Source: Thalassotalea marina | GTDB taxonomy: Bacteria > Pseudomonadota > Gammaproteobacteria > Enterobacterales > Alteromonadaceae | DNA length: 64,000 bases | Assembly: GCF_014656435.1 (NCBI RefSeq) | Contig: NZ_BNCK01000006.1 | Location: 1-64,000, forward strand | Direction: 5' to 3' | Translations under genes and position numbers: made by a program | Notes under the pieces: model-generated | Told to the model about the DNA's origin: nothing | Databases searched by the model: none | What the model saw: the letters and a program-made list of their open reading frames with translations, nothing else | In this document: positions 23,923-52,458 of the stretch, in pieces | Layout of the letters: each line of letters opens with the position of its first letter | Position numbering within the stretch: position 1 is the stretch's first letter

Positions 23923-26190
<2,268 letters not shown>

Positions 26191-31235: not shown

Positions 31236-31269
31236 GAAAAAAAGCACTAATTGATTTAGTGCTTTTTTA
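31236..31269. terminator. Bidirectional Rho-independent terminator between the lipoprotein gene (+) and the end of the pigment operon (-)
   Basis: gaaaaaaAGCACTAAttgatTTAGTGCTtttttacc. Confidence 0.65.
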
Positions 31270-31288: not shown

Positions 31289-32098
31289 TTAATTAAACAC
31301 CCAGGCAAGTCCTAACCCAACTGAAACATTTTCTTTTTGTTGCACGAGAGGGCTGTTTTCATTTTTACTACCACCGATATGGCGATAAAGCACAAAGCCA
31401 GCAAGCCACCATTGCTGTTTGCGATAAACAAGCCCAGAAGATAAGCTGGTGCCTAGGTATCCTGATTTAGCATCAAACGCTGGGCGATGAGCAAGTTGAT
31501 ACTGTTTGTCTACCTGATAATAAACATCTTGATATGTTTCAGAGGCAAAGTTTACCGTTAAACGATTTTGCCAAGTTAACTGCCCCTGATTAACTGCAGC
31601 TAATGTATGTTGTGCATGTAACGCAGTGCCATATTGCCACCCAGCATCAGACAATGTAGAAAAATCTGTCATGATTGCTTTGCGCGTGAACAATTCAGTA
31701 AAGAGCTTGTTATCTGCTGACGGCGTACCTGACAAATAATATTTGATGGCGCCGCCAAGCTGGAAAGTCCAATCAATGTCAGGCATACCAGAGCGAATAG
31801 CCACATCATCACTGTTTACGGGCAACTGCGCTGACACCGAAAAATCAACATATAAACGTTGTGTTTGCCACAAGCTGCTGAGCAGACCATCGCGATCAAC
31901 TTTGATGTGTTTGTCTTGATAATACACATAAGGCAGTGGAACTATATGTTGGCGATAATCCTTTGCCCCAGCATATTCTGGAACATGAAGCGCAAAGGCA
32001 CCAACACCAATTTCAAAAATTCGTTCAGGCTGCTCGCCAGCCTCTGTTAACGTAGCGCACAAAAGTAATAGTGCACAAAACAATCCTTGTCGTTTCAA
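31289..32098 (-). CDS. MipA/OmpV-family outer-membrane beta-barrel protein (last gene of the aryl-polyene operon)
   Basis: Signal peptide. Alternating amphipathic beta-strands. C-terminal aromatic residue (...GLGLAWVFN). 3-bp gap to the upstream KS gene. Confidence 0.55.
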   Translation of the reverse strand: MKRQGLFCALLLLCATLTEAGEQPERIFEIGVGAFALHVPEYAGAKDYRQHIVPLPYVYYQDKHIKVDRDGLLSSLWQTQRLYVDFSVSAQLPVNSDDVAIRSGMPDIDWTFQLGGAIKYYLSGTPSADNKLFTELFTRKAIMTDFSTLSDAGWQYGTALHAQHTLAAVNQGQLTWQNRLTVNFASETYQDVYYQVDKQYQLAHRPAFDAKSGYLGTSLSSGLVYRKQQWWLAGFVLYRHIGGSKNENSPLVQQKENVSVGLGLAWVFN

Positions 32099-32101
32099 TG
32101 A

Positions 32102-33325
32102 TTAGTTCCAGCGTTTAAAAATAAGAGAGGTGTTGATACCACCAAAGGCAAAGTTATTACTCATTACATGATTGGTAACAATTTCTCTGCCAGCGCCTCG
32201 AACATAGTCAAGTTCAGCACACTCTGGATCAATAGTGTCTAAATTGATGGTTGGAGCAAACCAGTTGTCATTCATCATATTGATACAAGCCCATGCTTCA
32301 ATTGCCCCACAGGCACCTAGCGTATGGCCTAAGTAACTTTTAAGTGAGCTTATTGGCACTTGCCCCAACATTTGGTGTGTTGCATGTGTTTCTGCAATAT
32401 CACCGCGTTCCGTTGCTGTACCATGTGCATTGACATAACCAATTTGTGTAGCATCCAAGTTAGCATCTTCAAGTGCTAATTTAATCGCGCCAGCCATGGT
32501 TGCTTGTGTCGGTTGAGTTACATGCACACCATCGGCATTGGTGCCAAAGCCAACAAGCTCAGCCAAAATTGTTGCGCCACGAGCTTGGGCATGTTCTAAC
32601 TCTTCTAACACCAAAGTACAGGCGCCTTCGCCAATAACTAAGCCATCTCTTGAGGCTTCAAAAGGACGAGGGGATGATTTAGGGGCATCATTTTTAATAC
32701 TTGTCGCAAAAAGTGTATCAAAAACTGCAGCTTCTGTGACACAAAGCTCCTCTGCACCGCCTGCAACCATCACTTTTTGCTTGCCATATTTAATGGCTTC
32801 ATAAGCATAACCTATGCCCTGGGAGCCAGAAGTACACGCAGAGCTAGTAGTAATAGTGCGCCCTTTTAACTCAAAAAACACACCAACATTTACTGCCGTA
32901 GTATGAGCCATCATTTGAATGTAACTTGTTGCTGTTACGCCGGACATTTCACCATTTTTCATCAAGTTACCAAAAGGCACAATAGGATTGGTTGAACCAG
33001 TAGATGAACCATACGCAATACCCGTTGAACCATCAGTTAAACAGTCTTTATCAATTAAATCTGCTTGAGTAAGTGCTCTTTCTGTCGCCAGCGTTGCCAT
33101 TAATGAAACGCGCCCCATCGAGCGAACTTTCTGTCGTTTATAGTGTTTTGGCTTTTCAAAGTCTGTTACTGGCGCCGCTAAACGGGTGTTTAATCCGTCA
33201 ACATAATCCCATTCAGACATGTTGACGACTGCATTTTCGCCTTTAACTAACGCGCCTTTAAATGTTTGCCAATCTTGCCCTAAAGACGTGATGGCAGACA
33301 TTCCAGTCACAACTACACGTTTCAT
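32102..33325 (-). CDS. Beta-ketoacyl-ACP synthase (KAS I/II-like, elongating KS)
   Basis: Active-site Cys in TSSACTSGSQGIGY. His residues in NAHGTATERGD and GHTLGACGAIEA. TAATG overlap with the upstream gene. Confidence 0.85.
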   Translation of the reverse strand: MKRVVVTGMSAITSLGQDWQTFKGALVKGENAVVNMSEWDYVDGLNTRLAAPVTDFEKPKHYKRQKVRSMGRVSLMATLATERALTQADLIDKDCLTDGSTGIAYGSSTGSTNPIVPFGNLMKNGEMSGVTATSYIQMMAHTTAVNVGVFFELKGRTITTSSACTSGSQGIGYAYEAIKYGKQKVMVAGGAEELCVTEAAVFDTLFATSIKNDAPKSSPRPFEASRDGLVIGEGACTLVLEELEHAQARGATILAELVGFGTNADGVHVTQPTQATMAGAIKLALEDANLDATQIGYVNAHGTATERGDIAETHATHQMLGQVPISSLKSYLGHTLGACGAIEAWACINMMNDNWFAPTINLDTIDPECAELDYVRGAGREIVTNHVMSNNFAFGGINTSLIFKRWN

Positions 33326-34050
33326 TATACTAACCCACCATTTACTGATAACACTTGGCGTGTCATGTAAGCAGAGTCGTCAGACATTAAAAATGCCACG
33401 GTTCCTGCAACTTCTTCAACCTTGCCCATGCGTTTAATCGGCACTAATTTTAAGATTTCATCAACAGGCAAATCGTCGGTCATTTCAGTTTCTATCAACC
33501 CAGGCGCTACACAGTTTACGGTAATTTTTCTTTTGGCTAGCTCTAACGCCAAAGCTTTAGTTGCACCAATAATACCTGCCTTGGCGGCACTGTAATTAAC
33601 TTGGCCTCGATTACCAGCAATACCAGATACTGACGCCATGGTGACAATACGACCACCCTTTCGAGCTTGAACCATAGGCATTACCGTTGGATGTACAACA
33701 TTGTAGAAACCTTCCAATCCTGTTTTTATAACGGCATCCCAATCATCACCTGACATGGCAGGAAACGCCATATCTCGTGTAATACCTGCATTGCAGACTA
33801 CGCCGTAATATGCACCATATTGTTCAATATCTTGCTCAATGGCTTGTTGCGCTAATTGGCGATCACAAACATCAAATTGCAACACAGATGCATCTTGCCC
33901 CATGTCTTTTATTTCTTGAGCAACCGCTTGCGCTTGTTCTATTTGGCTGCGGCAATGTACAGTAATGTCAAATCCTTGCTTTGCTAACCTTAATGCAATG
34001 GCTCGCCCAATACCGCGACTTGAACCCGTTACTAATACACGTTTATTCAT
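33325..34050 (-). CDS. 3-oxoacyl-ACP reductase (FabG-like SDR)
   Basis: VLVTGSSRGIGRAIA Rossmann motif. YSAAK catalytic YxxxK. Confidence 0.85.
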   Translation of the reverse strand: MNKRVLVTGSSRGIGRAIALRLAKQGFDITVHCRSQIEQAQAVAQEIKDMGQDASVLQFDVCDRQLAQQAIEQDIEQYGAYYGVVCNAGITRDMAFPAMSGDDWDAVIKTGLEGFYNVVHPTVMPMVQARKGGRIVTMASVSGIAGNRGQVNYSAAKAGIIGATKALALELAKRKITVNCVAPGLIETEMTDDLPVDEILKLVPIKRMGKVEEVAGTVAFLMSDDSAYMTRQVLSVNGGLV

Positions 34051-34502
34051 TATTGTTCCTTTAAAAATGCTATTGGGTTTTCAGGTTGAAAGGCATTCAC
34101 TTTCGCCTGTGCAATCACTTGGTTTTCACGTTCTATTTTACATTCAAAAACCGTTAAACCTGAGTCGTCTCGATAGAGCTCTTCAACATGAACTTGATAA
34201 CTTTCACCCAATTCAAATGCAGGTTGAAACGTTTGATATTTGCGACTACCCAGTAAAAAACCTATATCAATTTTTTTATCTTTATCTAATGCATTAGCAC
34301 CAGCAAAAGCGGCGATAGTTTGAGCCATATATTCAATGCCGATATAGCTTGGGACCCCTTGAAGCTGTTCTTGATAAAAGGGAGAAGTTGGCAAAATATC
34401 TACCTCACAGGTCGCCGAGTCAGCCGTATAGTGAGTTAATCGAGACAACAAAATCATTGGTTCGCGATGAGCAATCACCTCTTCAATCGCGTAGTTTTTC
34501 AT
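34050..34502 (-). CDS. Hotdog-fold 3-hydroxyacyl-ACP dehydratase (aryl-polyene type)
   Basis: 150-aa hotdog fold. Translationally coupled between the KS and FabG genes. Confidence 0.6.
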   Translation of the reverse strand: MKNYAIEEVIAHREPMILLSRLTHYTADSATCEVDILPTSPFYQEQLQGVPSYIGIEYMAQTIAAFAGANALDKDKKIDIGFLLGSRKYQTFQPAFELGESYQVHVEELYRDDSGLTVFECKIERENQVIAQAKVNAFQPENPIAFLKEQ

Positions 34503-35689
34503 GCGGTTTTACCCAAAATAACACTGATATTATTGCCACCAAAAGCAAAAGAATTAGACAAAGCATTGTCTAATCGCTGTACTGAGTGGCCTTGAGAAAC
34601 GGCAATTCTAGCAAGATCAGGCGCAATTCCAAAGTCACTTTTATTTTTTGGTAAAGCACCGTGTGTATTGCGTGGTGAAAGTAACAGCCACAGTAGTGCA
34701 GCTTCAATTGCGCCAGCAGCCCCTAAGGTATGGCCAGTAAATCGTTTGGTTGAGCTGCAAGGTACTTGCTCGCCAAACACCTGTGAAACTGCAAGTGTTT
34801 CCATGGCATCATTTTTGGGCGTCGCCGTCCCATGTAGGTTGATATAATCAATGTCTTGCCCTGATAAACCTGCATCGTTTAACGCTTGCTGCATCGCTGA
34901 TTGAGCACCAATCCCTTCTGGGTGTGGCGCAGAAATATGATGAGCATCAGAGGTTTCACCTACACCACGCAACATGATAGGGCTAGTTTGACGAGACATA
35001 ACAAATAAAGCCGCCCCTTCACCAATGTTAATGCCGTCTCGTTCAGCTGATAATGGGTTACATAAAGTCGCTGCAATTGACTCTAATGCATTAAAACCGT
35101 TATTGGGTAAATGGCTTAGCGTATCTACACCACCACAAATAACAAGGTCAGCTAAATCACTTTGCAATAACGCTCTGGCGCTGGCCAAGGCTTTTGCACT
35201 AGAGCTACAAGCGGTAGAAATACTGTAAACAGGGCCTTTGGCACCACTTACCGTCGCAATAAAGTCAGCGGGTGACACCATTTCTTGTAGTGCGTAATCA
35301 AAATCACTTGGCCATTGCTGATGGTCACAAAATACTTGTCGCGCCACTTCCCCTTCTTTAATGCCCGAGGTACTTGTGCCAACAACGACTGCTATGCGTG
35401 TTGCTGGCATATCTTGCGTTAACATATCAATAGCGGGCTTAATTTGCTGATAGGCCAACATCGCTAATTGATTGTTTCGAGTTTGCATCGCTGGCTCATA
35501 ACCGTCCAACAGGCTTTGCATATTGCTGGTTTCAGCAACTTGACCACACCAAAATACTTTGTCGCTATCTAACGCTTTTGACCAAGGTTTTAAGTATTCT
35601 TCATCGGCCTTGTTGATCAGCGAATCAAAAACGCTATCTTTATCATGACCAAGGGAACAAACAATACCAACATCGTTTAAGAAACTCAT
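34499..35689 (-). CDS. Beta-ketoacyl-ACP synthase (second KS)
   Basis: STACSSSAKAL (Cys), NLHGTATPKND and GHTLGAAGAIEA. Confidence 0.85.
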   Translation of the reverse strand: MSFLNDVGIVCSLGHDKDSVFDSLINKADEEYLKPWSKALDSDKVFWCGQVAETSNMQSLLDGYEPAMQTRNNQLAMLAYQQIKPAIDMLTQDMPATRIAVVVGTSTSGIKEGEVARQVFCDHQQWPSDFDYALQEMVSPADFIATVSGAKGPVYSISTACSSSAKALASARALLQSDLADLVICGGVDTLSHLPNNGFNALESIAATLCNPLSAERDGINIGEGAALFVMSRQTSPIMLRGVGETSDAHHISAPHPEGIGAQSAMQQALNDAGLSGQDIDYINLHGTATPKNDAMETLAVSQVFGEQVPCSSTKRFTGHTLGAAGAIEAALLWLLLSPRNTHGALPKNKSDFGIAPDLARIAVSQGHSVQRLDNALSNSFAFGGNNISVILGKTA

Positions 35690-36240
35690 GAGTTTTGCCT
35701 CAGATTTTTAATGCTAAGCTGGTAGCCACGTGTTTTATGCGAAAAGTGTATCAGCTGCTCGGTATATCGCACTTCAATCACTAAAGTATCCTGATGATAA
35801 ATACGACGATACCTATCACCATTTTCTATCTCTTCAACTAACCTAGCGCCAACAAGCTGACTTTGCACGTCATTCAGTGGCAAGTGTATGACTTGCATAT
35901 CCGCCAAAACATACTCTGCCTTCATCGGTATTGGGATATATCGCTTTGTTGATATCTCGCCTGTTGCACTTTGCGTTAATTCAAACAAGGGAACACCTTG
36001 CAATGACACACCTACCATCACAAATTTATTATGGTTAACTTCAGTGGTCACCAGCATTTGATGGCTTTGTTGAGCAAATTGTCCAGTGACTAACACCTGA
36101 GTATCAGCAAAGGTATTATTTTGCGTTAACACTTGTAATGGCCAATTAACACCTGGCGACAATGTCACTTGACCAGCAGGTAAAGTCACACTGCAGCCCA
36201 TTAATCCCATAAAAAAAACTAGGCTTAACCATTTTTGCAT
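35686..36240 (-). CDS. Lipoprotein of unknown function (the DUF3261-like position in aryl-polyene clusters)
   Basis: Lipobox MGLMGC|S. Co-operonic with ATGA overlaps. Confidence 0.5.
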   Translation of the reverse strand: MQKWLSLVFFMGLMGCSVTLPAGQVTLSPGVNWPLQVLTQNNTFADTQVLVTGQFAQQSHQMLVTTEVNHNKFVMVGVSLQGVPLFELTQSATGEISTKRYIPIPMKAEYVLADMQVIHLPLNDVQSQLVGARLVEEIENGDRYRRIYHQDTLVIEVRYTEQLIHFSHKTRGYQLSIKNLRQNS

Positions 36241-37466
36241 AATTGCGCCAATACGTTTAAACGTCGTTCACTTTGAGCGACATACGGGTTTTCTATATCC
36301 CATGCATAACCTGCCAATATTGAGCTGATCATGCTTTTCACTTGTTGATCTTGTTGACCGTAGAAAATAACATCTTGAAATCGCCCATCATACCACGCGG
36401 TGACAAACGTTCTAAAACAGTCTACACCTGCTTTTAATGGCTTTGCATAGTCATTTTCTAGATCTATAGACTCGCCATTAAGTTTGCGAACAATTAACGG
36501 CGCAATCAGTGAGGCCGACTTTAATGCGATGGTTACCCCAGAAGAAAAAACTGGATCTAAAAATTCACCAGCATTACCTAACAACGCAAAATTGTTGCCA
36601 TGTAAACGCGACACATTGGCTGAATAACCTTTGATTGTTCTGACATTGTTTGCCAACGTAGCTTGGGCAAGAAGCGCTTTTAAATTGTCCGCTTGTTCGA
36701 TAAAAGACAATAAGGTTTGTTGCTCGGTTAAGCTAGGGTCAAACCGCGCTGGCTCACCCACAACCCCGACACTGGCTGTGCCGTCTGAAAAAGGGATCAG
36801 CCAATACCAAACATCTTTGTACTGTGGATGCACAGTGATCAAAATTTTATCGCGGTCAAAGCTAGGATCAGTGATTTGGTCATTAAAGTGCGCAAAAAAT
36901 GAATGACGTACAGGAAAATCTGACGGCGTTTCTAAATCCAGTAAACGCGGTAAAACACGACCAAAGCCGCTAGCATCTAGCAAAAACTGACCTTGAACTT
37001 GATACTCGTTACCCTGTTCATCTTGTACATCAATTGTTGGCTGGTCATCAGCAACATTTACCGCAAGCACTTGATGACCATATCGAATTTCAACGCCTTG
37101 CGCCTCGGCACCATCAGCAAGCACTTTGTCAAAATCAGCACGTTTAACTTGAAACGTTGTGCCAGGTCCAGTGCTAAATTTCTGTGTAAAATCAAACTCA
37201 ATGTCATGAACCTGATTACAAAATGCCGCACCATTTTTAAACTGAAATGCCAATGACGGTGCTTGTTCTGTAACCTGATCAACTAATCCAGCTTGTGCTA
37301 AAAATTCCATACATTGGGGCAATAAACTTTCGCCAATAGAAAAACGTGGAAAGTGTTCTTTTTCGACAATAAGGACCTTAATTCCCTCTCGCGCTAACAT
37401 CGCGCCAGCAACGGCACCAGAAGGGCCAGCACCTATGATAATGACATCAACTGTTTCTGTTTTCAT
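36225..37466 (-). CDS. Flavin-dependent halogenase-like FAD monooxygenase
   Basis: GxGxxG VIIIGAGPSGAVAG. Halogenase signature WxWxIP present as VWYWLIPF. IGESLLP segment. Confidence 0.65.
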   Translation of the reverse strand: MKTETVDVIIIGAGPSGAVAGAMLAREGIKVLIVEKEHFPRFSIGESLLPQCMEFLAQAGLVDQVTEQAPSLAFQFKNGAAFCNQVHDIEFDFTQKFSTGPGTTFQVKRADFDKVLADGAEAQGVEIRYGHQVLAVNVADDQPTIDVQDEQGNEYQVQGQFLLDASGFGRVLPRLLDLETPSDFPVRHSFFAHFNDQITDPSFDRDKILITVHPQYKDVWYWLIPFSDGTASVGVVGEPARFDPSLTEQQTLLSFIEQADNLKALLAQATLANNVRTIKGYSANVSRLHGNNFALLGNAGEFLDPVFSSGVTIALKSASLIAPLIVRKLNGESIDLENDYAKPLKAGVDCFRTFVTAWYDGRFQDVIFYGQQDQQVKSMISSILAGYAWDIENPYVAQSERRLNVLAQLCKNG

Positions 37467-39684: not shown

Positions 39685-39689
39685 CTGCC

Positions 39690-40268: not shown

Positions 40269-40684
40269 GGTTTAAGTTTTTCTAGGAAAATTGCCGGGCT
40301 TTCAAACTGCATTTCTTTACTATTAATACATACCGCCACTTGGATGGTATATGCTTTAGTCAGTTTTTTTCCGGTTTTAACATCTGATATCACGTAATCA
40401 ATTTTTAAACGAGATTCATATTCTTTTAAATAGGCATCAATGCGTATTTCCTGTGAAAACACAGCAGATCCCACATACTTTAACCGCATATCAATAATGG
40501 GCCATGCAAAGCCGGAGTCATGCATTTGCAAGTAGTCGTAGTCAATTTTACGCAACAATTCTCGACGCGCTTCTTCTAAATATCGCGCGTAGTTACCATG
40601 CCATACAACCTGCATAGGATCACAATCTTGAAAAGGCACATCAACAATGGCATGTGCGCTTAACAATGCATTTTTACTATTCAT
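40256..40684 (-). CDS. Hotdog-fold acyl-CoA/ACP thioesterase (4HBT/YbgC-like)
   Basis: VVWHGNYARYLEEAR motif typical of 4HBT thioesterases. I place the start at the ATG at 40684, 2 nt after the ammonia-lyase stop. The track's 40717 start is TTG. Confidence 0.65.
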   Translation of the reverse strand: MNSKNALLSAHAIVDVPFQDCDPMQVVWHGNYARYLEEARRELLRKIDYDYLQMHDSGFAWPIIDMRLKYVGSAVFSQEIRIDAYLKEYESRLKIDYVISDVKTGKKLTKAYTIQVAVCINSKEMQFESPAIFLEKLKPWLD

Positions 40685-42212: not shown

Positions 42213-42219
42213 TTTTACC

Positions 42220-43173
42220 TTATTTATCGTTATTTCGTATTGACCCATCGTCTTTTTGCCAAAAATCGAAAAAGTTAAACCATTGAAATGGGTATTGCAG
42301 CGCATAATACTCCAATCGCTGTGCATATGCAGTGATTAATGCGCTAAGTGTTTCTTTTCGTTGTTTTCTTGGTAATTTCAACTGATCTGATACTTTCTCA
42401 AAAACCAGATGAAAACCCTGTGATTCTTTTAAACAAAATAGCCAATATACAGGGCACTCTAATAAAGCGGCTAGAATAAAAGGCCCTTGAGAAAATGGTG
42501 CATCTTGACCTAAAAATGGCACGTACTCTACTCGGCCAGCTTGAGTGACACTGGTGCGATCACCAACAATCACCACCATTTCACCACCGTCGACTTTTTC
42601 TTTCAACATGATAGCCAAAGCTGGCGACATCTCAGTGACTTGAATCAAGTTTACTGACACTTGTTGATTAACACTTTGCAGCACTTCATTAAATTTGACG
42701 GCATTTTCAGTAAACACCAACACATTGATCGGTTTTTGATATTTTCCTTGGCTTAACGCCCTACACACTTCTAAATTACCTAAATGTGAGCCAATAAAAA
42801 TAGCCCCTTGGCCTTGCTCAACCAGTTGCTTAAAAGTTGAATCGTCGTTGTAGGTAATATTTTGTTGAGTAATATGACCAAGCCAAGCATCAAGTTTATC
42901 AAACGCCGAATCAGCAAACTTGCAAAAATGTTTTAGCCCAACTGTAAAACTGGGTTTAGGTACAGATGGCGATATTTGATGCGCTTTGGCGAAAAACTGA
43001 TATGACGCTTCACGTGCACTGCGGCCAGTGACACACATAAATAACACCACGGGGAATAGAAAAACCCACAACACACGACGGCCAAAGACTCGATAGACCC
43101 AAAGCAAAATTTTTATGCCTAAAATTGAGCCACGCTCTTGTTGACGTGACCAATGCTGTTTGGCCTGACTCAT
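42220..43173 (-). CDS. LpxL/HtrB-family lipid-A-type lauroyl/myristoyl acyltransferase-like protein
   Basis: N-terminal membrane anchor (ILLWVYRVFGRRVLWVFLFPVV). ~310 aa. ATGA overlap with the GT2 gene. Confidence 0.6.
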   Translation of the reverse strand: MSQAKQHWSRQQERGSILGIKILLWVYRVFGRRVLWVFLFPVVLFMCVTGRSAREASYQFFAKAHQISPSVPKPSFTVGLKHFCKFADSAFDKLDAWLGHITQQNITYNDDSTFKQLVEQGQGAIFIGSHLGNLEVCRALSQGKYQKPINVLVFTENAVKFNEVLQSVNQQVSVNLIQVTEMSPALAIMLKEKVDGGEMVVIVGDRTSVTQAGRVEYVPFLGQDAPFSQGPFILAALLECPVYWLFCLKESQGFHLVFEKVSDQLKLPRKQRKETLSALITAYAQRLEYYALQYPFQWFNFFDFWQKDDGSIRNNDK

Positions 43174-43904
43174 GGCTTCGACCTTCTAAACAGCAATTTA
43201 GGCAAGCGCAATAACATGCCAAAACAAAGTTTAGTATGCATCCAAGAAATACGGACATTGTCTTCAAAGGCACGAAAATGTGAGGTACCCGCTTCAGGAT
43301 AAATCACTTTTGTATCAATAAACTGAGTATTAGTACCTCGCCAGTACAATCGCACAAGTATTTCTATATCAAAGTCCATGCGTTTACCAATATTGACCTG
43401 ATTAATTAACGCAACACTCGGTTTTAACGGGTATACACGAAAGCCACACATGGTGTCTTTTAACTGCAAAGATAAGGTTTCGACAATGACCCAAAAGTGG
43501 GTAATGTAGCGCGCCCAATATCGATGTTTTGGAATAGAGTCATCATATACTGGCTTGCCGCTAATCACGTCTTCCGGGTGTTGATGTGACAGAGTCAACA
43601 AGCGAGTAATATCGTCAAGGCAATGTTGCCCATCAGCGTCAACTTGTATCGCGTAGTCAAAGCCGTTTGCTAACGCATATTTTAAGCCCGTTTGTACCGC
43701 GCCACCTTTTCCTTGGTTAACGTCGTGATGTAACAAAGTTAATGATGGCGTTGAGCCTTCTATGGCCACTAACTGTTGCTTAACGGTTTCGTCACTCGCA
43801 TCGTTTACCATAATGATCGGCAGCTCAAAGGCTGTTAACGCACTGATCAATGAGTCGATACATGCAACATGGTTATAATTGGGGATAACAAAACAATAAC
43901 GCAC
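43170..43904 (-). CDS. Family-2 glycosyltransferase
   Basis: CFVIPNYNH…VNDASDE…QVDADGQH (DxD). Confidence 0.75.
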   Translation of the reverse strand: MRYCFVIPNYNHVACIDSLISALTAFELPIIMVNDASDETVKQQLVAIEGSTPSLTLLHHDVNQGKGGAVQTGLKYALANGFDYAIQVDADGQHCLDDITRLLTLSHQHPEDVISGKPVYDDSIPKHRYWARYITHFWVIVETLSLQLKDTMCGFRVYPLKPSVALINQVNIGKRMDFDIEILVRLYWRGTNTQFIDTKVIYPEAGTSHFRAFEDNVRISWMHTKLCFGMLLRLPKLLFRRSKP

Positions 43905-43915
43905 TACGGTTCCTT

Positions 43916-44275
43916 TTATTCTGCTAATGTCACAATGCGACCAGAAGCATGAGTGCCTTTTTCCGATACATATTTAAAGGTAAATTTATTGGCTGATTTT
44001 TGTGTCAGAATTAATTTCACCTCTAATTCTGGTTGAATCACCACTTGAAACTTAAGCACTTCAACATTTTGCACTACATGAGACGATAAGGTTAAATACT
44101 GGCTAGCAAAATGAACCGCCCAATCTAACTGTGCAACGCCAGGCAATACAGGCGCCTGCGGGAAATGGCCTTTAAAATAGTCGATTTCAGCACTGATATA
44201 TAAAGTGAGTTCGGTTTCATCGCCAACCGTGTTTACTTTGACAAGGTCAGGCAATAAGTGATTGAGTTCAGACAA
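43916..44275 (-). CDS. FabZ/FabA-like hotdog dehydratase
   Basis: GHFPQAPVLPGVAQLDW, similar to the FabZ HFPGxPVMPG motif. Confidence 0.7.
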   Translation of the reverse strand: MSELNHLLPDLVKVNTVGDETELTLYISAEIDYFKGHFPQAPVLPGVAQLDWAVHFASQYLTLSSHVVQNVEVLKFQVVIQPELEVKLILTQKSANKFTFKYVSEKGTHASGRIVTLAE

Positions 44276-45611
44276 ACAATTTCTCCAATTCTTTCACGGG
44301 CAATTTACCTTGTGCGTTAAAAGGAAGTTCAGTTAGGTATCGCCATTTACGCGGTATTGTCACTAATTCAAAATGTTGTTGTAAATGTATTTTTAACTGC
44401 TGACTGACCTGACGTGCCCCCTCCTGTTGCAAGTGTTGCCAGCCTTTTGCATTTAATTGAACTACTGCAGCTAAAACCGTGCGCTTTCCTTCTAAGACCA
44501 ATAACTTAATATCTGTTACCCATTTATGGTTTTTACAGCACAGCTCCATTTGCGTCAGATTAACACGCTTTTCTTCCAGTTTAATGGTTCGGTCAATTCG
44601 CCCTAACAGCTTTAACTTGCCGTCAATGAGTTGACCGGTATCATCTAATGGCATGTGCTGCTGGTGAATAAACGGCGAATTTAAAATCAAGCGGCGACTC
44701 TGTGGCTCGACTTGACAACTAACACCAGGAAAAAACTGCCATAAATCATCTGACGGTGCACTTTGTTGGCGATAGGCAATGCCACCAGTTTCAGTGCTAC
44801 CGTATACTTGAGTCACAGCAAGGCCTAATTGATAATGTAAAGTCAGCGCATCTTGAATTGCCAATAAACCACCAGAACTGAAAACATAGCTCAATCTATT
44901 GGCAACGTCAGTAATTACGTTATCTTGCTTAAGCCTTGATAAAAATGCTGGGCTAGAAACCAAGATAACTTGCTGGTGTTGCTTGATTAAACTGGCAAGT
45001 TCTTCAGGGTATTCAATGGTATTTGTCACCTGACACTGCAGCTTTAACGGCAACAATGCACGAAACAAAAGTCCATAAATGTGTTGATGCGACACCGTTG
45101 AAATAAACACACTGTCAGCTTGTATCTCAAACAAGGATGCCAGTGTTGCTAATTCGTTGTTAATTAATGGCCAATCTTTAACTATCGCTTTAGGTTTACC
45201 TGAAGAGCCTGATGTAAAAAAGACAATGTTGCCTTCAGTTGGCCAAGCTAAAGGCGCATTTTCAGTTTGTTGTGGCGTAGCTTGTACTGTTGATGCGTGT
45301 TCATCTAACAATGTTTTTCCACTAACAGACACCGCACCACAGCAATAATCGACATGTTCAGCTAATTCATTAAGCGTACCTAGTTGATCATTAGGCGGTA
45401 ATACAACTGTATGTTGCTCAAGTCCTAATGCTATCAACCGAGTTAAAAAAGCATAAACATCAGCTTCAAACAACAATACCTTGGCAACGACACCATGGGG
45501 AATGCTCTGCCTTAAAACGTTCCTAAAGTGAGCAACGTCATTAATAAAGGTTGCGTCACTAAAGTTTATTGTCTTTTTACTAACTGGCGCAGCGGATGAA
45601 GAATTATTCAT
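44268..45611 (-). CDS. AMP-dependent synthetase/ligase (aryl/acyl-CoA or -ACP ligase)
   Basis: FFTSGSSGKPKAIV (AMP-binding box I) and VYGSTETGG. Confidence 0.8.
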   Translation of the reverse strand: MNNSSSAAPVSKKTINFSDATFINDVAHFRNVLRQSIPHGVVAKVLLFEADVYAFLTRLIALGLEQHTVVLPPNDQLGTLNELAEHVDYCCGAVSVSGKTLLDEHASTVQATPQQTENAPLAWPTEGNIVFFTSGSSGKPKAIVKDWPLINNELATLASLFEIQADSVFISTVSHQHIYGLLFRALLPLKLQCQVTNTIEYPEELASLIKQHQQVILVSSPAFLSRLKQDNVITDVANRLSYVFSSGGLLAIQDALTLHYQLGLAVTQVYGSTETGGIAYRQQSAPSDDLWQFFPGVSCQVEPQSRRLILNSPFIHQQHMPLDDTGQLIDGKLKLLGRIDRTIKLEEKRVNLTQMELCCKNHKWVTDIKLLVLEGKRTVLAAVVQLNAKGWQHLQQEGARQVSQQLKIHLQQHFELVTIPRKWRYLTELPFNAQGKLPVKELEKLFV

Positions 45612-45615
45612 GGAT

Positions 45616-46146
45616 TTAACTATGTTTAACTTTTTGCCTAACTAACCATTCAATGGCAAATAATAATGCAACTAGGATATACGATATCAAGCCGTTATAG
45701 AGTATCCACGCTTGTTTAGACAAGCAAAGCGCACTGTATAACGATACCGCAGCATTTAATGCAAAAAACGCACACCATACTTTTGTCACATTTTCAGTGT
45801 ATTTAACCGCTTTATCACTTAATTCTGGCTCTTTAATACGAGCAAATGTTTCAATAATACTCGGCTTATTGATCAGCGAGTAGGCAAACGCCAACATCAT
45901 AGCGATGTTAACCGCCACCGGATAAAGCAAGATGCCCAATTCATTATTGGCAAATGCAGACATCAACAACACCATCGCACCCAAAGCAAAAGCAACAGGT
46001 AACCAAGGCATTTTGGCTAACAATGGTTTTGACAAAAACAAACGTAAACTGATCAAGGCAAGCAGTGCAATGCTTAACCATCTTGGTGGTAAATATTGTA
46101 ACCCGATATAAACAACAAATGGGTAGGCTACAAGTAGCATACCCAT
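45616..46146 (-). CDS. Integral membrane protein of unknown function (aryl-polyene cluster-associated)
   Basis: Five hydrophobic helices. 176 aa. Confidence 0.5.
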   Translation of the reverse strand: MGMLLVAYPFVVYIGLQYLPPRWLSIALLALISLRLFLSKPLLAKMPWLPVAFALGAMVLLMSAFANNELGILLYPVAVNIAMMLAFAYSLINKPSIIETFARIKEPELSDKAVKYTENVTKVWCAFFALNAAVSLYSALCLSKQAWILYNGLISYILVALLFAIEWLVRQKVKHS

Positions 46147-46166
46147 TGATATGTTTAAGATTGTGT

Positions 46167-46418
46167 TTACGCGGTTAATAGTAGTTTCTCTATTTCGTCA
46201 ATCACATCTTGTACGGTTCTAACACGTCGAAATGCGTCAGGATTAATTTTCTTACCTATGATTTGACTTAACTTAACCACTAAGTCAACAGCGTCAATAC
46301 TGTCAAGTTCAAGGTCTTCATATAAATTGGCTTCAAGCGTAATATCGGCCTCGTCTATCTCAAAATCTTCCACTAAGATTTCGGTTAATGTCGCTAACAT
46401 TTCTTCTCTAGACTTCAT
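46167..46418 (-). CDS. Acyl carrier protein (second of a tandem ACP pair)
   Basis: Phosphopantetheine site LELDSIDAVDL. The ATG at ~46418 (MKSREEML…) is 8 bp after the preceding ACP stop. The track's start at 46460 would overlap it by 34 bp. Confidence 0.7.
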   Translation of the reverse strand: MKSREEMLATLTEILVEDFEIDEADITLEANLYEDLELDSIDAVDLVVKLSQIIGKKINPDAFRRVRTVQDVIDEIEKLLLTA

Positions 46419-46426
46419 GGTTTTAC

Positions 46427-46687
46427 CTACTTCTCTCTCACGCTTTCTATGAAGGCACATAAACTGTTTACTGATGCAAAGTGCTGTTTAGTTTCTTCTG
46501 AATTTGCATCTAGCTTGATATCAAAACGCTTTTTAATAGCTAAACCTAGCTCTAATGCGTCGATGCTATCTAGACCTAAACCATCGACAAAAAGTGGCTC
46601 GTCGTCTTTTATTTCGTCTACTGTGATGTCTTCGAGATCTAGTGTCTCGATTATTAACGTTTTAACATCAAGTGCTAAACTACTCAT
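46427..46687 (-). CDS. Acyl carrier protein (first of a tandem ACP pair)
   Basis: LGLDSIDALEL. 86 aa, acidic. Confidence 0.8.
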   Translation of the reverse strand: MSSLALDVKTLIIETLDLEDITVDEIKDDEPLFVDGLGLDSIDALELGLAIKKRFDIKLDANSEETKQHFASVNSLCAFIESVREK

Positions 46688-47451
46688 GCTTTTTTTAGTT
46701 CCTGTATAAAGTGTTGTTCTAAAACGGCAGTAAATTGTCTGCTCATTTTACTCATGGCTTGACCTTCAGCCATTTCAAAGTTGGGAGTGCTGTTTGATAT
46801 TCTTAAAGTGAATAACGCTCGCCTTTGTGGAATATGATACCACTTTTCAGCTTTTGTTAACGTAGTTGGCGTAACATTTATAACAACAGTGGTTATTGCT
46901 GCTCGACACCTTAGAGCAATATTGGCTGCACCACGCTGAAACTTAATTGTTTTACCGGCAGTGGTACGTGTGCCTTCTGGGAATATAATTAGATTATTCC
47001 CGGCGGCTAACGATTGATTGCAATCGTCCATCACACCGTCTGCACTGTCGTTACTGATATAACCGGTATTGTTCAATATCGCTTTCATAAAAGGATTTTT
47101 GAACAAACTGGCTTTAACCACACAATCAGCATTGGGAATAATAGAGATCAACACAACAACGTCAATTAAAGACGGATGATTAGCCATAACAATATGGCCA
47201 CGTAAATTATTTAATTCTTGTTTGTTTTCAATGTTAAATCGAATAGTGCCGGTAATGTTCAATACCTGTACAAAAAACTTAAAAAGATAATGCACCATTT
47301 GGCGAGTTTTTTGGTTTCGCACCATTTGATCGCGATACATTAAACGTTGTAAAGGACAAACAAAAATTGAAATAAGTAGCCCACCAAGACCAAACAAGGT
47401 GAAACAAAATGCCGTTGAACACAATCGCCAACAATAACTTAAATACTTCAT
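46684..47451 (-). CDS. 1-acyl-sn-glycerol-3-phosphate acyltransferase-like (PlsC family)
   Basis: HxxxxD acyltransferase motif in MANHPSLIDVV. FPEGTR motif. Confidence 0.75.
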   Translation of the reverse strand: MKYLSYCWRLCSTAFCFTLFGLGGLLISIFVCPLQRLMYRDQMVRNQKTRQMVHYLFKFFVQVLNITGTIRFNIENKQELNNLRGHIVMANHPSLIDVVVLISIIPNADCVVKASLFKNPFMKAILNNTGYISNDSADGVMDDCNQSLAAGNNLIIFPEGTRTTAGKTIKFQRGAANIALRCRAAITTVVINVTPTTLTKAEKWYHIPQRRALFTLRISNSTPNFEMAEGQAMSKMSRQFTAVLEQHFIQELKKA

Positions 47452-48164
47452 AAGGCGAGCTTTATTTGACCTGTGTTTCTTGCGCCAACAATATGATGTT
47501 CCGCTAAACTATTGTTGTTCATTGCATCAATAAAGGCGATGGCCTGAGGTATATCTTTATCTGGTAGCGTTTCATGACTTGGTATCAAGTCAAAAGTACA
47601 AGCTCGGCCATGTTCGGCTTGTTTTGACAGGATAAAAGCAACGGCATGATCAATTTGCTTTTCATCACTGAAAACTTGGTATTCTTCGGGTAATGCTTGG
47701 TCACAATGTATAACCAATATCTCTTGGATTTCAGAACTTTTTAATCTGGCGTAAGCATCAATAACACCAGCTAAAAATGTATCTTTACCGGCTGATACCG
47801 TATTGGATGCAGCAACGTTGTTAGTCAAAATACTCAATAAACCTGCTGACGCGTTATGCACCGACATACTAAAAGCCGTAGGTGATAGACTTTCTTTAGC
47901 AGCGACGGTATCGAGTAGCCCAGCCGTTTTATGAATATCGCCGTGCCTTGTAGAAAATACCACGGGGATTTCTTCTCTTCCGTCTAAAGCTTGGTGTGCA
48001 CAGTGTAGCGCTATTTTAGTAAAAGCACTTAACCTGCGCCTTTGCATTGCGGGCACCCAATCTAAAACGGGTAATTGTTCCTTGGCAAAACGTTGACTTG
48101 AACCCTGTTCAACTATACTCGACTCTGCAATTAGGTAACTTAAATGATGAATGTAAAATTGCAC
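47448..48164 (-). CDS. Ketosynthase-like protein (KS N-terminal-domain / chain-length-factor-like). First gene of the operon
   Basis: 238 aa with a thiolase-like N-terminal half and no complete Cys-His-His triad. GTG start preceded by AGGAAC. ATGA overlap with the PlsC-like gene. Confidence 0.55.
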   Translation of the reverse strand: MQFYIHHLSYLIAESSIVEQGSSQRFAKEQLPVLDWVPAMQRRRLSAFTKIALHCAHQALDGREEIPVVFSTRHGDIHKTAGLLDTVAAKESLSPTAFSMSVHNASAGLLSILTNNVAASNTVSAGKDTFLAGVIDAYARLKSSEIQEILVIHCDQALPEEYQVFSDEKQIDHAVAFILSKQAEHGRACTFDLIPSHETLPDKDIPQAIAFIDAMNNNSLAEHHIVGARNTGQIKLAL

Positions 48165-52437: not shown

Positions 52438-52458
52438 GTTTACTTCTCTTGTTTATAT

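What the first reader, a model, noticed from the sequence alone, without database searches (positions are those of the whole stretch)
31289..48164. 17-kb aryl-polyene / xanthomonadin / flexirubin-like pigment operon with a flavin-dependent halogenase and an aromatic ammonia-lyase
About twenty translationally coupled minus-strand genes (many ATGA/TAATG overlaps) encode the hallmark aryl-polyene set: a tandem ACP pair, KS + KS + CLF-like, FabG-like KR, two hotdog dehydratases, a thioesterase, an AMP-ligase, LpxL-like and PlsC-like acyltransferases, a GT2, a DUF3261-like lipoprotein, LolA-like and MMPL exporters and a terminal MipA/OmpV-like outer-membrane protein. Two features differ from the E. 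coli-type cluster. There is a MIO-type ammonia-lyase (ASG triad), implying a cinnamate/coumarate-derived starter as in flexirubin. There is also an FAD enzyme with the halogenase WxWxIP signature (VWYWLIPF), as in brominated xanthomonadins. I see no SAM methyltransferase, which the 3-methyl/3,5-dimethyl head groups of the E. coli and Vibrio APE types would require. Several genes use TTG/GTG starts with good SD sequences.
Basis: partly seen in the sequence, partly recalled or inferred. Interest (0 to 1): 0.7.

Follow-up and report, generated by a model that had tools for sequence, protein, structure and literature searches.

The report
Aryl-polyene pigment-lipid operon with halogenase
This is an intact aryl-polyene pigment-lipid gene cluster in the marine bacterium Thalassotalea marina, a common Vibrio-type version that carries an aromatic ammonia-lyase and a halogenase-like flavoenzyme but no methyltransferase; it is an ordinary member of a very widespread family, although whether its halogenase really halogenates the pigment has never been tested.

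Summary
Window 31289-48164 (minus strand) holds 20 tightly packed genes: 12 of 19 junctions overlap and the largest gap is 26 nt.

Every E. coli Ape protein except the methyltransferase ApeB has a homologue here. ApeJ is split into a GT2 and an LpxL-like acyltransferase. The cluster extends beyond the given coordinates: an ApeA lipoprotein (30841-31227, plus strand) and an AcpT-like PPTase (30084-30737) were missed.

The two "unusual" genes are not unusual.
- The lyase has an invariant [F/Y]-H-G-C-G motif and matched more than 589 stretches in a collection of 185,579 species genomes.
- Of 70 complete clusters sampled, 54 also carry the halogenase.
- Aliivibrio fischeri has the same 20-gene layout with lyase, halogenase and ApeB.
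- The Thalassotalea cluster is that type minus ApeB, and halogenase-only is the commonest architecture (40 of 70).

The halogenase keeps GxGxxG, the catalytic Lys and WxWxIP in 59 of 59 orthologues. The lyase is not a histidine lyase, and tyrosine is the likelier substrate.

A halogenated 4-hydroxyphenyl polyene lipid is plausible but unproven. Verdict: a new member of a known kind, of modest interest.

The parts
47448..48164 (-). ApeC: KS-like chain-length factor, no active-site Cys; GTG start
   Evidence: Pfam Ketoacyl-synt_2 E 1e-54. 31% identity to E. coli ApeC, E 9e-27. No Cys/His KS motifs.
46684..47451 (-). ApeD: PlsC-type lysophospholipid acyltransferase
   Evidence: Pfam Acyltransferase E 4e-22. 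39% identity to E. coli ApeD.
46427..46687 (-). ApeE: acyl carrier protein (DSI serine)
   Evidence: Pfam PP-binding. 58% identity to E. coli ApeE. DSI motif.
46167..46418 (-). ApeF: second acyl carrier protein (83 aa by NCBI's start; the longest ORF starts at 46460)
   Evidence: Pfam PP-binding. 53% identity to E. coli ApeF. NCBI gene call.
45616..46146 (-). ApeG: small polytopic membrane protein (COG4648 type)
   Evidence: About 6 hydrophobic segments. 43% identity to E. coli ApeG, E 2e-31.
44268..45611 (-). ApeH: adenylating acyl-ACP synthetase that loads the aromatic starter
   Evidence: Pfam AMP-binding. Best NCBIfam hit is 4-coumarate-CoA ligase TIGR02372, below its cut-off. 33% identity to E. 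coli ApeH, E 3e-44.
43916..44275 (-). ApeI: hotdog dehydratase; TTG start
   Evidence: Pfam ApeI-like E 2e-15. 37% identity to E. coli ApeI.
43170..43904 (-). GT2 glycosyltransferase, equivalent to the N-terminal half of E. coli ApeJ; GTG start
   Evidence: Pfam Glycos_transf_2. 54% identity to E. coli ApeJ residues 8-247.
42220..43173 (-). LpxL-like acyltransferase, equivalent to the C-terminal half of E. coli ApeJ
   Evidence: Pfam Lip_A_acyltrans. 42% identity to E. coli ApeJ residues 243-550.
40677..42212 (-). MIO-dependent aromatic amino-acid ammonia-lyase (511 aa): ASG triad, Phe-His selectivity pair, N-Q-D instead of the HAL Glu. Probable tyrosine ammonia-lyase.
   Evidence: Pfam Lyase_aromatic E 1e-159. 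Alignments to SgTAM and RsTAL. Motifs invariant in 82 homologues.
40256..40684 (-). ApeK: 4HBT-fold thioesterase
   Evidence: Pfam 4HBT_2. 48% identity to E. coli ApeK.
39690..40256 (-). ApeL: LolA-like periplasmic carrier with a signal peptide
   Evidence: Pfam LolA. NCBIfam LolA2_flexi, below cut-off. 24% identity to E. coli ApeL.
37447..39684 (-). ApeM: RND/MMPL-superfamily exporter; TTG start
   Evidence: No Pfam hit. Topology is TM1, large loop, TM cluster, large loop, TM cluster. 24% identity over the full length to E. coli ApeM (annotated MMPL family), E 8e-37. Orthologues carry Pfam MMPL.
36225..37466 (-). Flavin-dependent halogenase-like enzyme (413 aa): GAGPSG, Lys77, WYWLIP, FLDPVFSSG
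   Evidence: Pfam Trp_halogenase E 1e-24. PDB: 3nix E 5e-102, then CndH, Mpy16, PltA, CmlS, Bmp2. Motifs kept in 59 of 59 orthologues.
35686..36240 (-). ApeN: DUF3261 lipoprotein (lipobox LMGC), LolB-like
   Evidence: Pfam DUF3261 E 2e-27. Sequence. 30% identity to E. coli ApeN.
34499..35689 (-). ApeO: ketosynthase partner of ApeC (Cys, HGTAT, GHTLGAAG)
   Evidence: Pfam ketoacyl-synt N and C domains. NCBIfam PRK09185, 475 bits, above cut-off. 43% identity to E. coli ApeO. Motifs.
34050..34502 (-). ApeP: hotdog dehydratase
   Evidence: Pfam ApeP-like E 3e-20. 30% identity to E. coli ApeP.
33325..34050 (-). ApeQ: FabG-like ketoreductase
   Evidence: Pfam adh_short and KR. 59% identity to E. coli ApeQ.
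32102..33325 (-). ApeR: FabB/F-like ketosynthase
   Evidence: NCBIfam PRK09116, 722 bits, above cut-off. 60% identity to E. coli ApeR. Active-site Cys and His motifs.
31289..32098 (-). MipA/OmpV-type outer-membrane protein, last gene of the operon; TTG start
   Evidence: Pfam MipA E 5e-35. Also follows ApeR in Thalassotalea, Pseudoalteromonas, Litorilituus and a few other loci. A MipA gene also sits in the Azoarcus arc cluster.
31238..31268 (.). 13-bp-stem hairpin flanked by an A-run and a T-run, between the convergent ApeA and MipA genes; probable bidirectional terminator
   Evidence: Terminator scan. Terminator-like sites overall were not above shuffled expectation, so the assignment rests on position.
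30841..31227 (+). ApeA-like small lipoprotein (128 aa, lipobox VAGC), convergent with the operon
   Evidence: 34% identity to the E. coli ApeA lipoprotein, E 4e-24. Lipobox. Homologues sit next to the cluster in 17 of the other loci. No Pfam family.
30084..30737 (-). Sfp/AcpT-type 4'-phosphopantetheinyl transferase, probably activates ApeE and ApeF
   Evidence: Pfam ACPS E 1e-14. 24% identity to E. coli AcpT, E 5e-8; AcpT directly follows ApeR in E. coli. PPTase genes flank the cluster in about 12 other loci.
48218..48245 (-). Promoter-like -35/-10 pair (TTGAAT, 16 nt spacer, TATAAT) 54 nt upstream of the ApeC start
   Evidence: Weak evidence: the number of promoter-like sites in the region equals the shuffled expectation.

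Best explanation
This is the aryl-polyene (APE) lipid biosynthesis and export operon of Thalassotalea marina. It belongs to the Vibrio fischeri-type APE subfamily.

Proposed route (inferred):
1. The MIO lyase deaminates tyrosine to 4-coumarate.
2. ApeH adenylates 4-coumarate and loads it on the tandem ACPs ApeE and ApeF. The neighbouring AcpT-like PPTase activates these ACPs.
3. ApeR and the ApeO-ApeC KS/CLF pair extend the chain with malonyl units. ApeQ (KR) and ApeI/ApeP (DH) leave each unit as a double bond, giving a 4-hydroxyphenyl-polyenoyl-ACP.
4. The flavin-dependent halogenase adds Cl or Br ortho to the phenol, probably on the carrier-bound intermediate. These are the ring positions that the methyltransferase ApeB, missing here, methylates in E. 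coli and Vibrio.
5. ApeK releases the acid. ApeD, the GT2 and the LpxL-like acyltransferase attach it to a glycolipid or phospholipid anchor.
6. ApeG, L, M, N, A and MipA move and hold the lipid in the outer membrane.

Shown here: gene content, order, orthology and the catalytic motifs.
Inferred: the starter (about 0.75 for tyrosine), halogenation of the product (about 0.55), and the timing and carrier-bound nature of halogenation. That the locus is an APE cluster at all I hold at about 0.97. The confidence given below is for the full statement, including the tyrosine starter and halogenation.
For: Orthology and colinearity with the E. coli ape cluster:
- Homologues exist for ApeA and ApeC-R, for example ApeR 60%, ApeQ 59%, ApeE 58% and ApeJ 54%/42% for its two halves.
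- The gene functions are those tabulated for E. coli and Xenorhabdus in PMC8253772.
- Pfam ApeI-like, ApeP-like and DUF3261 hits support this.
- KS active sites are present in ApeO and ApeR and absent in ApeC; both ACPs have the DSI serine.

Same layout in A. fischeri:
- The order is Hal, ApeB, lipoprotein, then ApeC to ApeR with the lyase after ApeJ.
- Identities to the window proteins are lyase 65%, Hal 56% and ApeR 66%.

Lyase:
- It has the ASG triad.
- Gln replaces the HAL-specific Glu, as in RsTAL and SgTAM.
- His sits in the column of SgTAM His93.
- RsTAL is the best solved match for the C-terminal part.
- The lyase co-occurs with two enzymes that act on phenols: ApeB-type methyltransferases and/or the halogenase, in 62 of 70 clusters.
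- AltA in Pseudoalteromonas alterochromide synthesis shows that a TAL-made coumarate can start such a polyene and that a halogenase (AltN) can brominate it (PMC5577590).

Halogenase:
- The closest characterised solved relatives are halogenases: CndH, Mpy16, PltA, CmlS and Bmp2. By my knowledge, most of these act on carrier-bound substrates.
- Its Lys aligns with the CndH Lys.
- GxGxxG, Lys, WxWxIP and FxDPxFSSG are kept in 59 of 59 orthologues.
- Xanthomonas clusters with a halogenase gene give brominated pigments. The Lysobacter cluster without one gives a non-brominated pigment (PMC3691225).
- In Microbulbifer an ApeB homologue occupies the slot between ApeM and ApeN where the halogenase sits here.
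Against: No chemistry is available for this organism or for any halogenase-only cluster that I could find.

Against tyrosine as the substrate:
- The lyase has Phe, not His, in the RsTAL His89 column, which is the classical PAL-like state.
- It is about equally distant from the HAL, TAL, PAL and aminomutase NCBIfam models, and falls below every curated cut-off.

Against halogenation of the product:
- The A. fischeri cluster carries an orthologous halogenase. The APE_Vf product from heterologous expression was, as I recall from Cimermancic et al. 2014 (not held in the library), a non-halogenated dimethyl-hydroxyphenyl polyene.
- Azoarcus arcuflavin is C41H52O4 although its cluster has a gene annotated as a halogenase.
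- No flavin reductase gene is in the cluster.
- Related Pseudoalteromonas strains with the cluster are described as non-pigmented (PMC10286705; PMC9966250), so expression may be low.
Confidence: 0.5

Rival explanations
1. Same APE operon, but the halogenase-like flavoprotein does not halogenate the pigment in vivo. It could be inactive on this substrate, serve another substrate, or act as an oxygenase. The product would then be a plain 4-hydroxyphenyl polyene lipid.
For: - A. fischeri has the orthologue, yet its reported product is non-halogenated (from memory, Cimermancic 2014).
- Arcuflavin has no halogen despite a gene annotated as a halogenase in its cluster.
- The closest solved structure, 3nix, is annotated only as flavoprotein/dehydrogenase.
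- NCBI names the gene NAD(P)/FAD-dependent oxidoreductase.
- 16 of 70 clusters do without it.
Against: - All halogenase signature motifs, including the Lys, are invariant in 59 orthologues across several orders of bacteria. That is hard to explain for a non-halogenating enzyme.
- WxWxIP is held to block monooxygenation (established knowledge of the family).
- The non-halogenated products came from hosts or media without added bromide. In the Vibrio case both ortho positions are methylated.
- Presence or absence of a halogenase gene tracks bromination in Xanthomonas versus Lysobacter.
Confidence: 0.3
2. The lyase is a phenylalanine ammonia-lyase. The starter would be cinnamate and the head group an unsubstituted phenyl ring, possibly oxidised later.
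For: - Phe occupies the column where the RsTAL His-to-Phe change switches preference to phenylalanine (plus established knowledge).
- Phe or Tyr is conserved there in 82 homologues.
Against: - His is invariant in the next column, where SgTAM His93 contacts the tyrosine hydroxyl (established knowledge). PALs carry Leu or Val there.
- Both tailoring enzymes that accompany the lyase (ApeB-type methyltransferase, flavin halogenase) need an activated phenol.
- The APE products known from E. coli and V. fischeri are 4-hydroxyphenyl compounds (PMC8253772).
- The best solved match for the C-terminal part is a TAL.
Confidence: 0.12
3. The cluster makes a flexirubin-type pigment, that is, an aryl polyene esterified to a dialkylresorcinol.
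For: - A TAL-like lyase and a LolA with a weak match to the flexirubin LolA2 model are present.
- The halogenase is about 50% identical to a Cytophaga hutchinsonii protein (3nix).
- Some Pseudoalteromonas strains are reported to have APE-resorcinol hybrid clusters linked to yellow-orange colour (PMC9966250).
Against: - The extra ACP, KS and 173-aa genes found upstream of the cluster in Pseudoalteromonas L082 have no counterpart in the window.
- The five genes on each side are unrelated: a chemoreceptor, a GntR regulator, glycoside hydrolases, a histidine kinase and KatG.
- The lyase scores 345 bits against a 700-bit cut-off for FlxA.
- Gene order follows E. coli ape, not the flexirubin cluster.
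Confidence: 0.05

Closest known systems
Vibrio (Aliivibrio) fischeri APE_Vf cluster (MIBiG BGC0000837; by my count VF_0841-VF_0860)
   Same: - Same core order from ApeC to ApeR, with the lyase inserted after ApeJ.
- Orthologous lyase (65%, same RFHGCG and ECHNQDK motifs) and halogenase (56%, all motifs kept).
- ApeR 66% and ApeQ 64%.
- Published genome papers rate Pseudoalteromonas clusters of this kind as most similar to the V. fischeri cluster.
   Different: - A. fischeri has the ApeB methyltransferase; the window has none.
- There the halogenase and ApeB lie upstream on the other strand. Here the halogenase is in-line between ApeM and ApeN.
- ApeJ is fused there and split here.
- The window adds MipA, an ApeA-like lipoprotein and a PPTase.
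E. coli CFT073 / Xenorhabdus doucetiae ape cluster (APE_Ec, APE_Xd)
   Same: Homologues of ApeA and ApeC-R, colinear from ApeC to ApeR, with an AcpT-type PPTase downstream in both. Enzyme roles are established in vitro and by deletion for that system (PMC8253772; bioRxiv 10.1101/2020.12.19.423268).
   Different: - E. coli has no lyase and uses 4-hydroxybenzoate from UbiC.
- E. coli has no halogenase and no MipA.
- E. coli has ApeB.
- ApeA is first in the E. coli operon, whereas here it is convergent at the far end.
Xanthomonadin clusters (Xanthomonas; Azoarcus arc cluster)
   Same: A type II aryl-polyene synthase with a halogenase gene and, in Azoarcus, a MipA gene. Brominated pigments occur where the halogenase gene is present.
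   Different: - The xanthomonadin starter is 3- or 4-hydroxybenzoate from the XanB2 chorismatase, not a lyase product.
- No XanB2-type gene is in or next to this cluster.
- Gene order differs.
Flexirubin clusters of Bacteroidota (FlxA tyrosine ammonia-lyase)
   Same: An ammonia-lyase supplies a coumarate-type starter for an aryl polyene. A LolA-like gene is present. The halogenase's closest solved relative is from Cytophaga hutchinsonii.
   Different: - No dialkylresorcinol genes.
- The lyase is not an FlxA equivalog (345 vs 700 bits).
- Different phylum and gene order.
Alterochromide (alt) cluster of Pseudoalteromonas piscicida
   Same: AltA converts tyrosine to coumarate, which primes type II polyene synthesis. 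AltN brominates the phenol. Both roles were shown by deletion (PMC5577590). This is the best experimental precedent for the chemistry proposed here, and it comes from a related marine genus.
   Different: - The alt polyene is passed to an NRPS to make a lipopeptide.
- The window has no NRPS genes and instead has lipid attachment and outer-membrane export genes.
- Sequence relatedness of AltA and AltN to the window proteins was not tested.

Membership tests
Aryl-polyene (ape) biosynthetic gene cluster | KS (ApeO) plus a Cys-less chain-length factor (ApeC), and a second KS (ApeR) | tested here: met
   Pfam and NCBIfam hits. Identities of 43%, 31% and 60% to the E. coli proteins. Active-site motifs present in ApeO and ApeR, absent in ApeC.
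Aryl-polyene (ape) biosynthetic gene cluster | Tandem ACPs, ApeH adenylating loader, ApeQ KR, ApeI and ApeP dehydratases | tested here: met
   Pfam PP-binding twice, AMP-binding, adh_short/KR, ApeI-like and ApeP-like. Homology to the E. coli proteins.
Aryl-polyene (ape) biosynthetic gene cluster | Attachment and export set: ApeD, ApeJ (GT plus AT), ApeK, ApeG, ApeL (LolA), ApeM (RND/MMPL), ApeN (DUF3261) | tested here: met
   All have homologues, colinear with E. coli. ApeM rests on 24% full-length identity (E 8e-37) and its topology.
Aryl-polyene (ape) biosynthetic gene cluster | The product is an aryl-polyene carboxylic acid bound to a membrane lipid | not testable with these tools
   Needs pigment extraction and MS/NMR.
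V. fischeri-type APE subfamily | RFHGCG-type ammonia-lyase inserted between ApeJ and ApeK | tested here: met
   Same position and 65% identity in A. fischeri. Same position in 78 of 80 sampled loci.
V. fischeri-type APE subfamily | ApeB methyltransferase | tested here: not met
   No tblastn hit in the whole window. It is present in A. fischeri and in 22 of 70 complete loci.
Flavin-dependent halogenase | GxGxxG FAD-binding motif and WxWxIP motif | tested here: met
   GAGPSG at residue 12 and WYWLIP at residue 220.
Flavin-dependent halogenase | Catalytic lysine that holds the hypohalite or chloramine intermediate | tested here: met
   Lys77 (FQFKNGAAF) aligns with the Lys of CndH (FPIKRGGTF) and of 3nix. 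It is invariant in 59 of 59 orthologues.
Flavin-dependent halogenase | Halide-dependent halogenation of a substrate | not testable with these tools
   Needs an enzyme assay or product MS. Indirect evidence is mixed.
Tyrosine ammonia-lyase (MIO family) | Ala-Ser-Gly MIO triad and the catalytic Tyr of the YGxxTGxG loop | tested here: met
   GSVGASGDL and IYGVTTGYG. GSVGASGDL is invariant in 82 homologues.
Tyrosine ammonia-lyase (MIO family) | His-Leu selectivity pair of RsTAL (His89-Leu90) | tested here: not met
   The pair is Phe-His (LTRFHGCG). The His falls in the column of SgTAM His93 and HAL His83.
Tyrosine ammonia-lyase (MIO family) | Preference for tyrosine over phenylalanine and histidine | not testable with these tools
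   Inferred from context only. All NCBIfam TAL models are below cut-off.
Histidine ammonia-lyase | Ser-His pair plus Glu414 (NQED) for imidazole binding | tested here: not met
   Phe-His, and NQDK with Gln in the Glu column, as in RsTAL and SgTAM. hutH scores 393 bits against a 539-bit cut-off.
Flexirubin cluster | FlxA-type TAL and dialkylresorcinol (DarA/DarB) genes | tested here: not met
   FlxA model 345 bits against a 700-bit cut-off. No resorcinol-type genes in the flanks.
Xanthomonadin cluster | XanB2 chorismatase supplying 3- or 4-hydroxybenzoate | tested here: not met
   None among the cluster genes or the five genes on each side. The rest of the window was not scanned with a XanB2 model.

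The most novel reading that the evidence does not exclude
The conserved in-line halogenase is active, probably with bromide. The halogenase-only clusters, which are the commonest architecture among lyase-bearing APE clusters, would then make brominated or chlorinated 4-hydroxyphenyl-polyene lipids. The clusters occur in Shewanella, Pseudoalteromonas, Colwelliaceae, Idiomarina, Rheinheimera, Kangiella, Cellvibrionales and Marinobacter.

Halogenated outer-membrane lipids would then be a widespread but unrecognised feature of marine Gammaproteobacteria. The methyltransferase ApeB and the halogenase would be interchangeable tailoring modules competing for the same ring positions. The non-halogenated V. 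fischeri product would be explained by ApeB blocking those positions and by bromide-free heterologous expression.
Probability: 0.4. Interest if true: 0.55.

Novelty: new member of a known kind. Interest (0 to 1): 0.33.

Why it matters
[quoted passage not shown] Their lipids protect against oxidative stress and affect biofilm formation (PMC8253772).

This analysis shows that the lyase-primed subfamily is large: more than 589 stretches matched in a collection of 185,579 species genomes, including Vibrio vulnificus. Most of its members carry a halogenase with every catalytic motif intact, yet no halogenated product has been reported from them in the literature I could search.

Thalassotalea marina lacks the competing methyltransferase, so it is a clean system for asking what that halogenase does. 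As a finding about this window, however, it is an expected and correctly recognised cluster type.

Tried and rejected
- **Literature on this combination.** Searches combining aryl polyene with halogenase, ammonia-lyase or tyrosine ammonia-lyase found no paper on it. The Cimermancic 2014 paper is not held, so the APE_Vf structure and cluster limits are from memory.
- **Third protein search.** A search with an Aliivibrio lyase was swamped by V. vulnificus and did not list A. fischeri. The A. fischeri protein was reached instead through the 90% cluster members and its contigs.
- **Alterochromide link.** I tested whether the Pseudoalteromonas lyase P0209 was the alterochromide TAL AltA. It sits in another APE cluster, so no experimental TAL link was obtained.
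- **ApeM versus solved structures.** This gave only E 0.13 to the HpnN RND transporter. The RND assignment rests on E. coli ApeM homology and topology.
- **Promoter and terminator scans.** Counts were not above shuffled expectation. Only the position of the 31238-31268 hairpin and of one -35/-10 pair is suggestive.
- **Lyase loci outside APE clusters.** L062 is a decayed remnant and L075 lies next to two photolyase genes. Neither gave information on substrate.
- **ApeH divergence as a sign of changed starter.** ApeH is 33% identical to E. coli ApeH, but it is also only 43-53% identical among close relatives, so this was rejected as evidence.
- **Structure prediction.** Not run. A 50%-identical crystal structure (3nix) already exists for the halogenase, and the tools give no residue-level geometry for the lyase pocket.

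Full report
**Source and observation**

The window comes from Thalassotalea marina (GCA_042677825.1, contig JBHUDA010000015.1). The halogenase and lyase proteins are found there with 100% identity.

In transcription order the genes are: CLF-like KS, PlsC-type acyltransferase, two ACPs, a polytopic membrane protein, an AMP-binding enzyme, an ApeI-like dehydratase, GT2, an LpxL-like acyltransferase, a MIO aromatic lyase, a 4HBT thioesterase, LolA, a 745-aa transporter, a Trp_halogenase/FAD enzyme, a DUF3261 lipoprotein, KS, an ApeP-like dehydratase, an SDR ketoreductase, KS and MipA.

Twelve of the 19 junctions overlap by 1-20 nt and the largest gap is 26 nt. GTG or TTG starts are used by five genes. 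GC content (about 0.41) does not differ from the surroundings.

**Comparison with the E. coli cluster**

I fetched an E. coli ape cluster (L085) and compared all proteins. Its gene functions are documented in PMC8253772.

| E. coli protein | Match in T. marina |
|---|---|
| ApeR | 60% |
| ApeQ | 59% |
| ApeE | 58% |
| ApeF | 53% |
| ApeK | 48% |
| ApeO | 43% |
| ApeG | 43% |
| ApeD | 39% |
| ApeI | 37% |
| ApeH | 33% |
| ApeC | 31% |
| ApeP | 30% |
| ApeN | 30% |
| ApeL | 24% |
| ApeM | 24% (E 8e-37) |
| ApeJ (fused) | GT2 54%, LpxL-like acyltransferase 42% |

- ApeO and ApeR have KS catalytic motifs, ApeC has none, and both ACPs have the DSI serine.
The 128-aa lipoprotein at 30841-31227 (plus strand, lipobox VAGC) is an ApeA homologue (34%, E 4e-24). 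The PPTase at 30084-30737 (Pfam ACPS) is related to AcpT (E 5e-8), which directly follows ApeR in E. coli.
- A 13-bp hairpin with A and T runs (31238-31268) lies between the convergent ApeA and MipA genes.
- Missing relative to E. coli: ApeB. Extra: the lyase, the halogenase and MipA.
- The flanking genes are unrelated: a chemoreceptor, a GntR regulator, GH88, a fucosidase and a TonB receptor upstream; a lipase-like protein, a hybrid kinase, an NMT1 protein and KatG downstream.

**How common the lyase and halogenase are**

Both proteins have thousands of close homologues. I scanned one genome per species (185,579 species) with an alignment of 16 lyases. These cover Alteromonadales families, Shewanella, Vibrionaceae, Kangiellaceae, Cellvibrionales, Marinobacter, Psychromonas, Deefgea and others.

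In 78 of the 80 loci the lyase sits in an ape cluster. The tailoring genes in the 70 loci where the whole cluster is visible are:

| Tailoring genes | Loci | Notes |
|---|---|---|
| Halogenase only | 40 | In-line between ApeM and ApeN, as in the window |
| Halogenase plus ApeB | 14 | Mostly Vibrionaceae, both genes divergent upstream |
| ApeB only | 8 | In Microbulbifer, ApeB occupies the halogenase slot |
| Neither | 8 | |

The methyltransferase is an ApeB homologue: Pfam Methyltransf_2 plus a dimerisation domain, and 52% identity to E. coli ApeB.

**Link to the characterised Vibrio cluster**

A. fischeri proteins fall in the same 90% cluster as an Aliivibrio lyase. The A. fischeri locus reads: halogenase, ApeB and a lipoprotein on one strand; then ApeC, D, E, F, G, H, I, a fused ApeJ of 563 aa, the lyase, and ApeK to ApeR on the other. 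That is 20 genes.

The fused ApeJ gene is 1,692 bp, the size listed for VF_0851 'acyltransferase' in PMC7811199. This places the halogenase at VF_0841 and ApeR at VF_0860, which are the limits I recall for MIBiG BGC0000837.

T. marina shares 65% (lyase), 56% (halogenase), 66% (ApeR) and 64% (ApeQ) identity with it. Genome papers already describe Pseudoalteromonas clusters of this kind as most similar to the V. fischeri cluster. The window therefore holds a member of that subfamily lacking ApeB.

**The halogenase**

- The best solved match is 3nix from Cytophaga hutchinsonii (E 5e-102, annotated only as a flavoprotein).
- Next come CndH, Mpy16, PltA, ChlB4, CmlS and Bmp2. By established knowledge these mostly act on carrier-bound substrates and, like this 413-aa protein, lack the large substrate domain of tryptophan halogenases.
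- Lys77 aligns with the CndH lysine.
- GxGxxG, Lys77, WxWxIP and FLDPVFSSG are kept in all 59 orthologues, including those of Vibrionaceae.

Evidence on whether such genes lead to halogenated pigments is mixed:
- Xanthomonas (gene present, brominated pigment) versus Lysobacter (gene absent, non-brominated pigment) supports the link.
- Arcuflavin from Azoarcus is C41H52O4 despite a gene annotated as a halogenase.
- The V. fischeri product is, from memory, not halogenated.

**The lyase**

- It has the ASG triad and the catalytic Tyr loop.
- At the classical selectivity pair it reads Phe-His (LTRFHGCG).
- The alignment to SgTAM puts the His in the column of SgTAM His93 and HAL His83, and the Phe in the column of RsTAL His89.
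- At the HAL Glu414 site it has Gln (NQDK), as in RsTAL and SgTAM. RsTAL is the best solved match for the C-terminal 140 residues.
- [F/Y]-H-G-C-G, GSVGASGDL and STECHNQDKVS are invariant in 82 homologues.

It is therefore not a histidine lyase. Tyrosine is favoured by the His, by the phenol-dependent tailoring enzymes that accompany it, by the 4-hydroxyphenyl products of known APE clusters, and by the alterochromide precedent, in which AltA makes coumarate and AltN brominates. Phenylalanine cannot be excluded. All NCBIfam HAL, TAL, PAL and mutase models score below their cut-offs, so this is a distinct, uncharacterised lyase clade.

**Verdict**

The cluster is a normal, intact member of the Vibrio-type aryl-polyene family in its commonest tailoring state: lyase plus halogenase, without a methyltransferase. 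The predicted product is a halogenated 4-hydroxyphenyl polyene lipid, and this prediction is untested. I found no report of such a product from this subfamily in the searchable literature.

Novelty: a new member of a known kind. Interest is modest. The one real open question is what the universally conserved halogenase does, and T. marina would be a convenient organism in which to answer it.

Noticed in passing
window 30841-31227 (+): A 128-aa lipoprotein gene (lipobox VAGC) with no Pfam family. It is homologous to E. coli ApeA (34%, E 4e-24) and was found beside ape clusters in 17 other loci, in varying position and orientation.
   Followed up: yes
window 29330-30737 (-): An AcpT-like PPTase overlaps a lipase/DUF676-like serine hydrolase gene (29330-30112). 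The PPTase recurs next to ape clusters in other genera. The hydrolase was seen only in T. marina, and its link to the cluster is unknown.
   Followed up: partly
L072 15054-16112 (Microbulbifer rhizosphaerae): An ApeB-type methyltransferase sits in-line between ApeM and ApeN/ApeO, the slot the halogenase occupies in the window. This suggests that the two tailoring genes replace one another.
   Followed up: partly
L082-L084 1-3860 (Pseudoalteromonas, e.g. CP011026.1): The same lyase-plus-halogenase ape cluster is preceded by an ABC transporter, an extra ACP, an extra 368-aa KS and a 173-aa protein, all absent from the window. A paper links hybrid APE-resorcinol clusters in this group to yellow-orange colonies (PMC9966250). 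In L082 the ApeM region is split into several ORFs and no halogenase or KR gene was called, so that copy looks decayed.
   Followed up: partly
L075 7127-11521 (Pseudomonadota MAG): A 63%-identical RFHGCG-type lyase lies outside any ape cluster, directly after two photolyase/cryptochrome genes and before a prolyl oligopeptidase. No explanation.
   Followed up: no
L062 8601-11527 (Photobacterium chitinilyticum): The lyase is accompanied only by ApeC-like and ACP remnants among unrelated genes. This looks like a decayed ape cluster.
   Followed up: partly
L073 1-6600 (Saccharospirillaceae MAG): A compact set of CLF, AMP-ligase, dehydratase, lyase, KS, dehydratase and KR genes without the lipid attachment and export genes. 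It may be a different use of the same lyase-primed polyene synthase.
   Followed up: no
L003-L006, L012-L019, L024 downstream of ApeR/MipA (e.g. L012 20188-20622): A conserved ~144-aa ORF without a Pfam family follows the cluster in Pseudoalteromonas, Rheinheimera and Idiomarina and lies upstream in some Cellvibrionales. It is absent from the window.
   Followed up: no
window 50144-57091 (-) and 23923-26190 (-): Upstream of the cluster lies a polysaccharide-utilisation set: a GntR regulator, GH88, alpha-L-fucosidase and a TonB-dependent receptor. Downstream lies a KatG catalase-peroxidase. Both appear unrelated to the finding.
   Followed up: no
one search hit list: The same lyase is present in many Vibrio vulnificus assemblies; individual sequence variants were each seen on up to several hundred contigs. 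This human pathogen therefore carries the lyase-type ape cluster.
   Followed up: no
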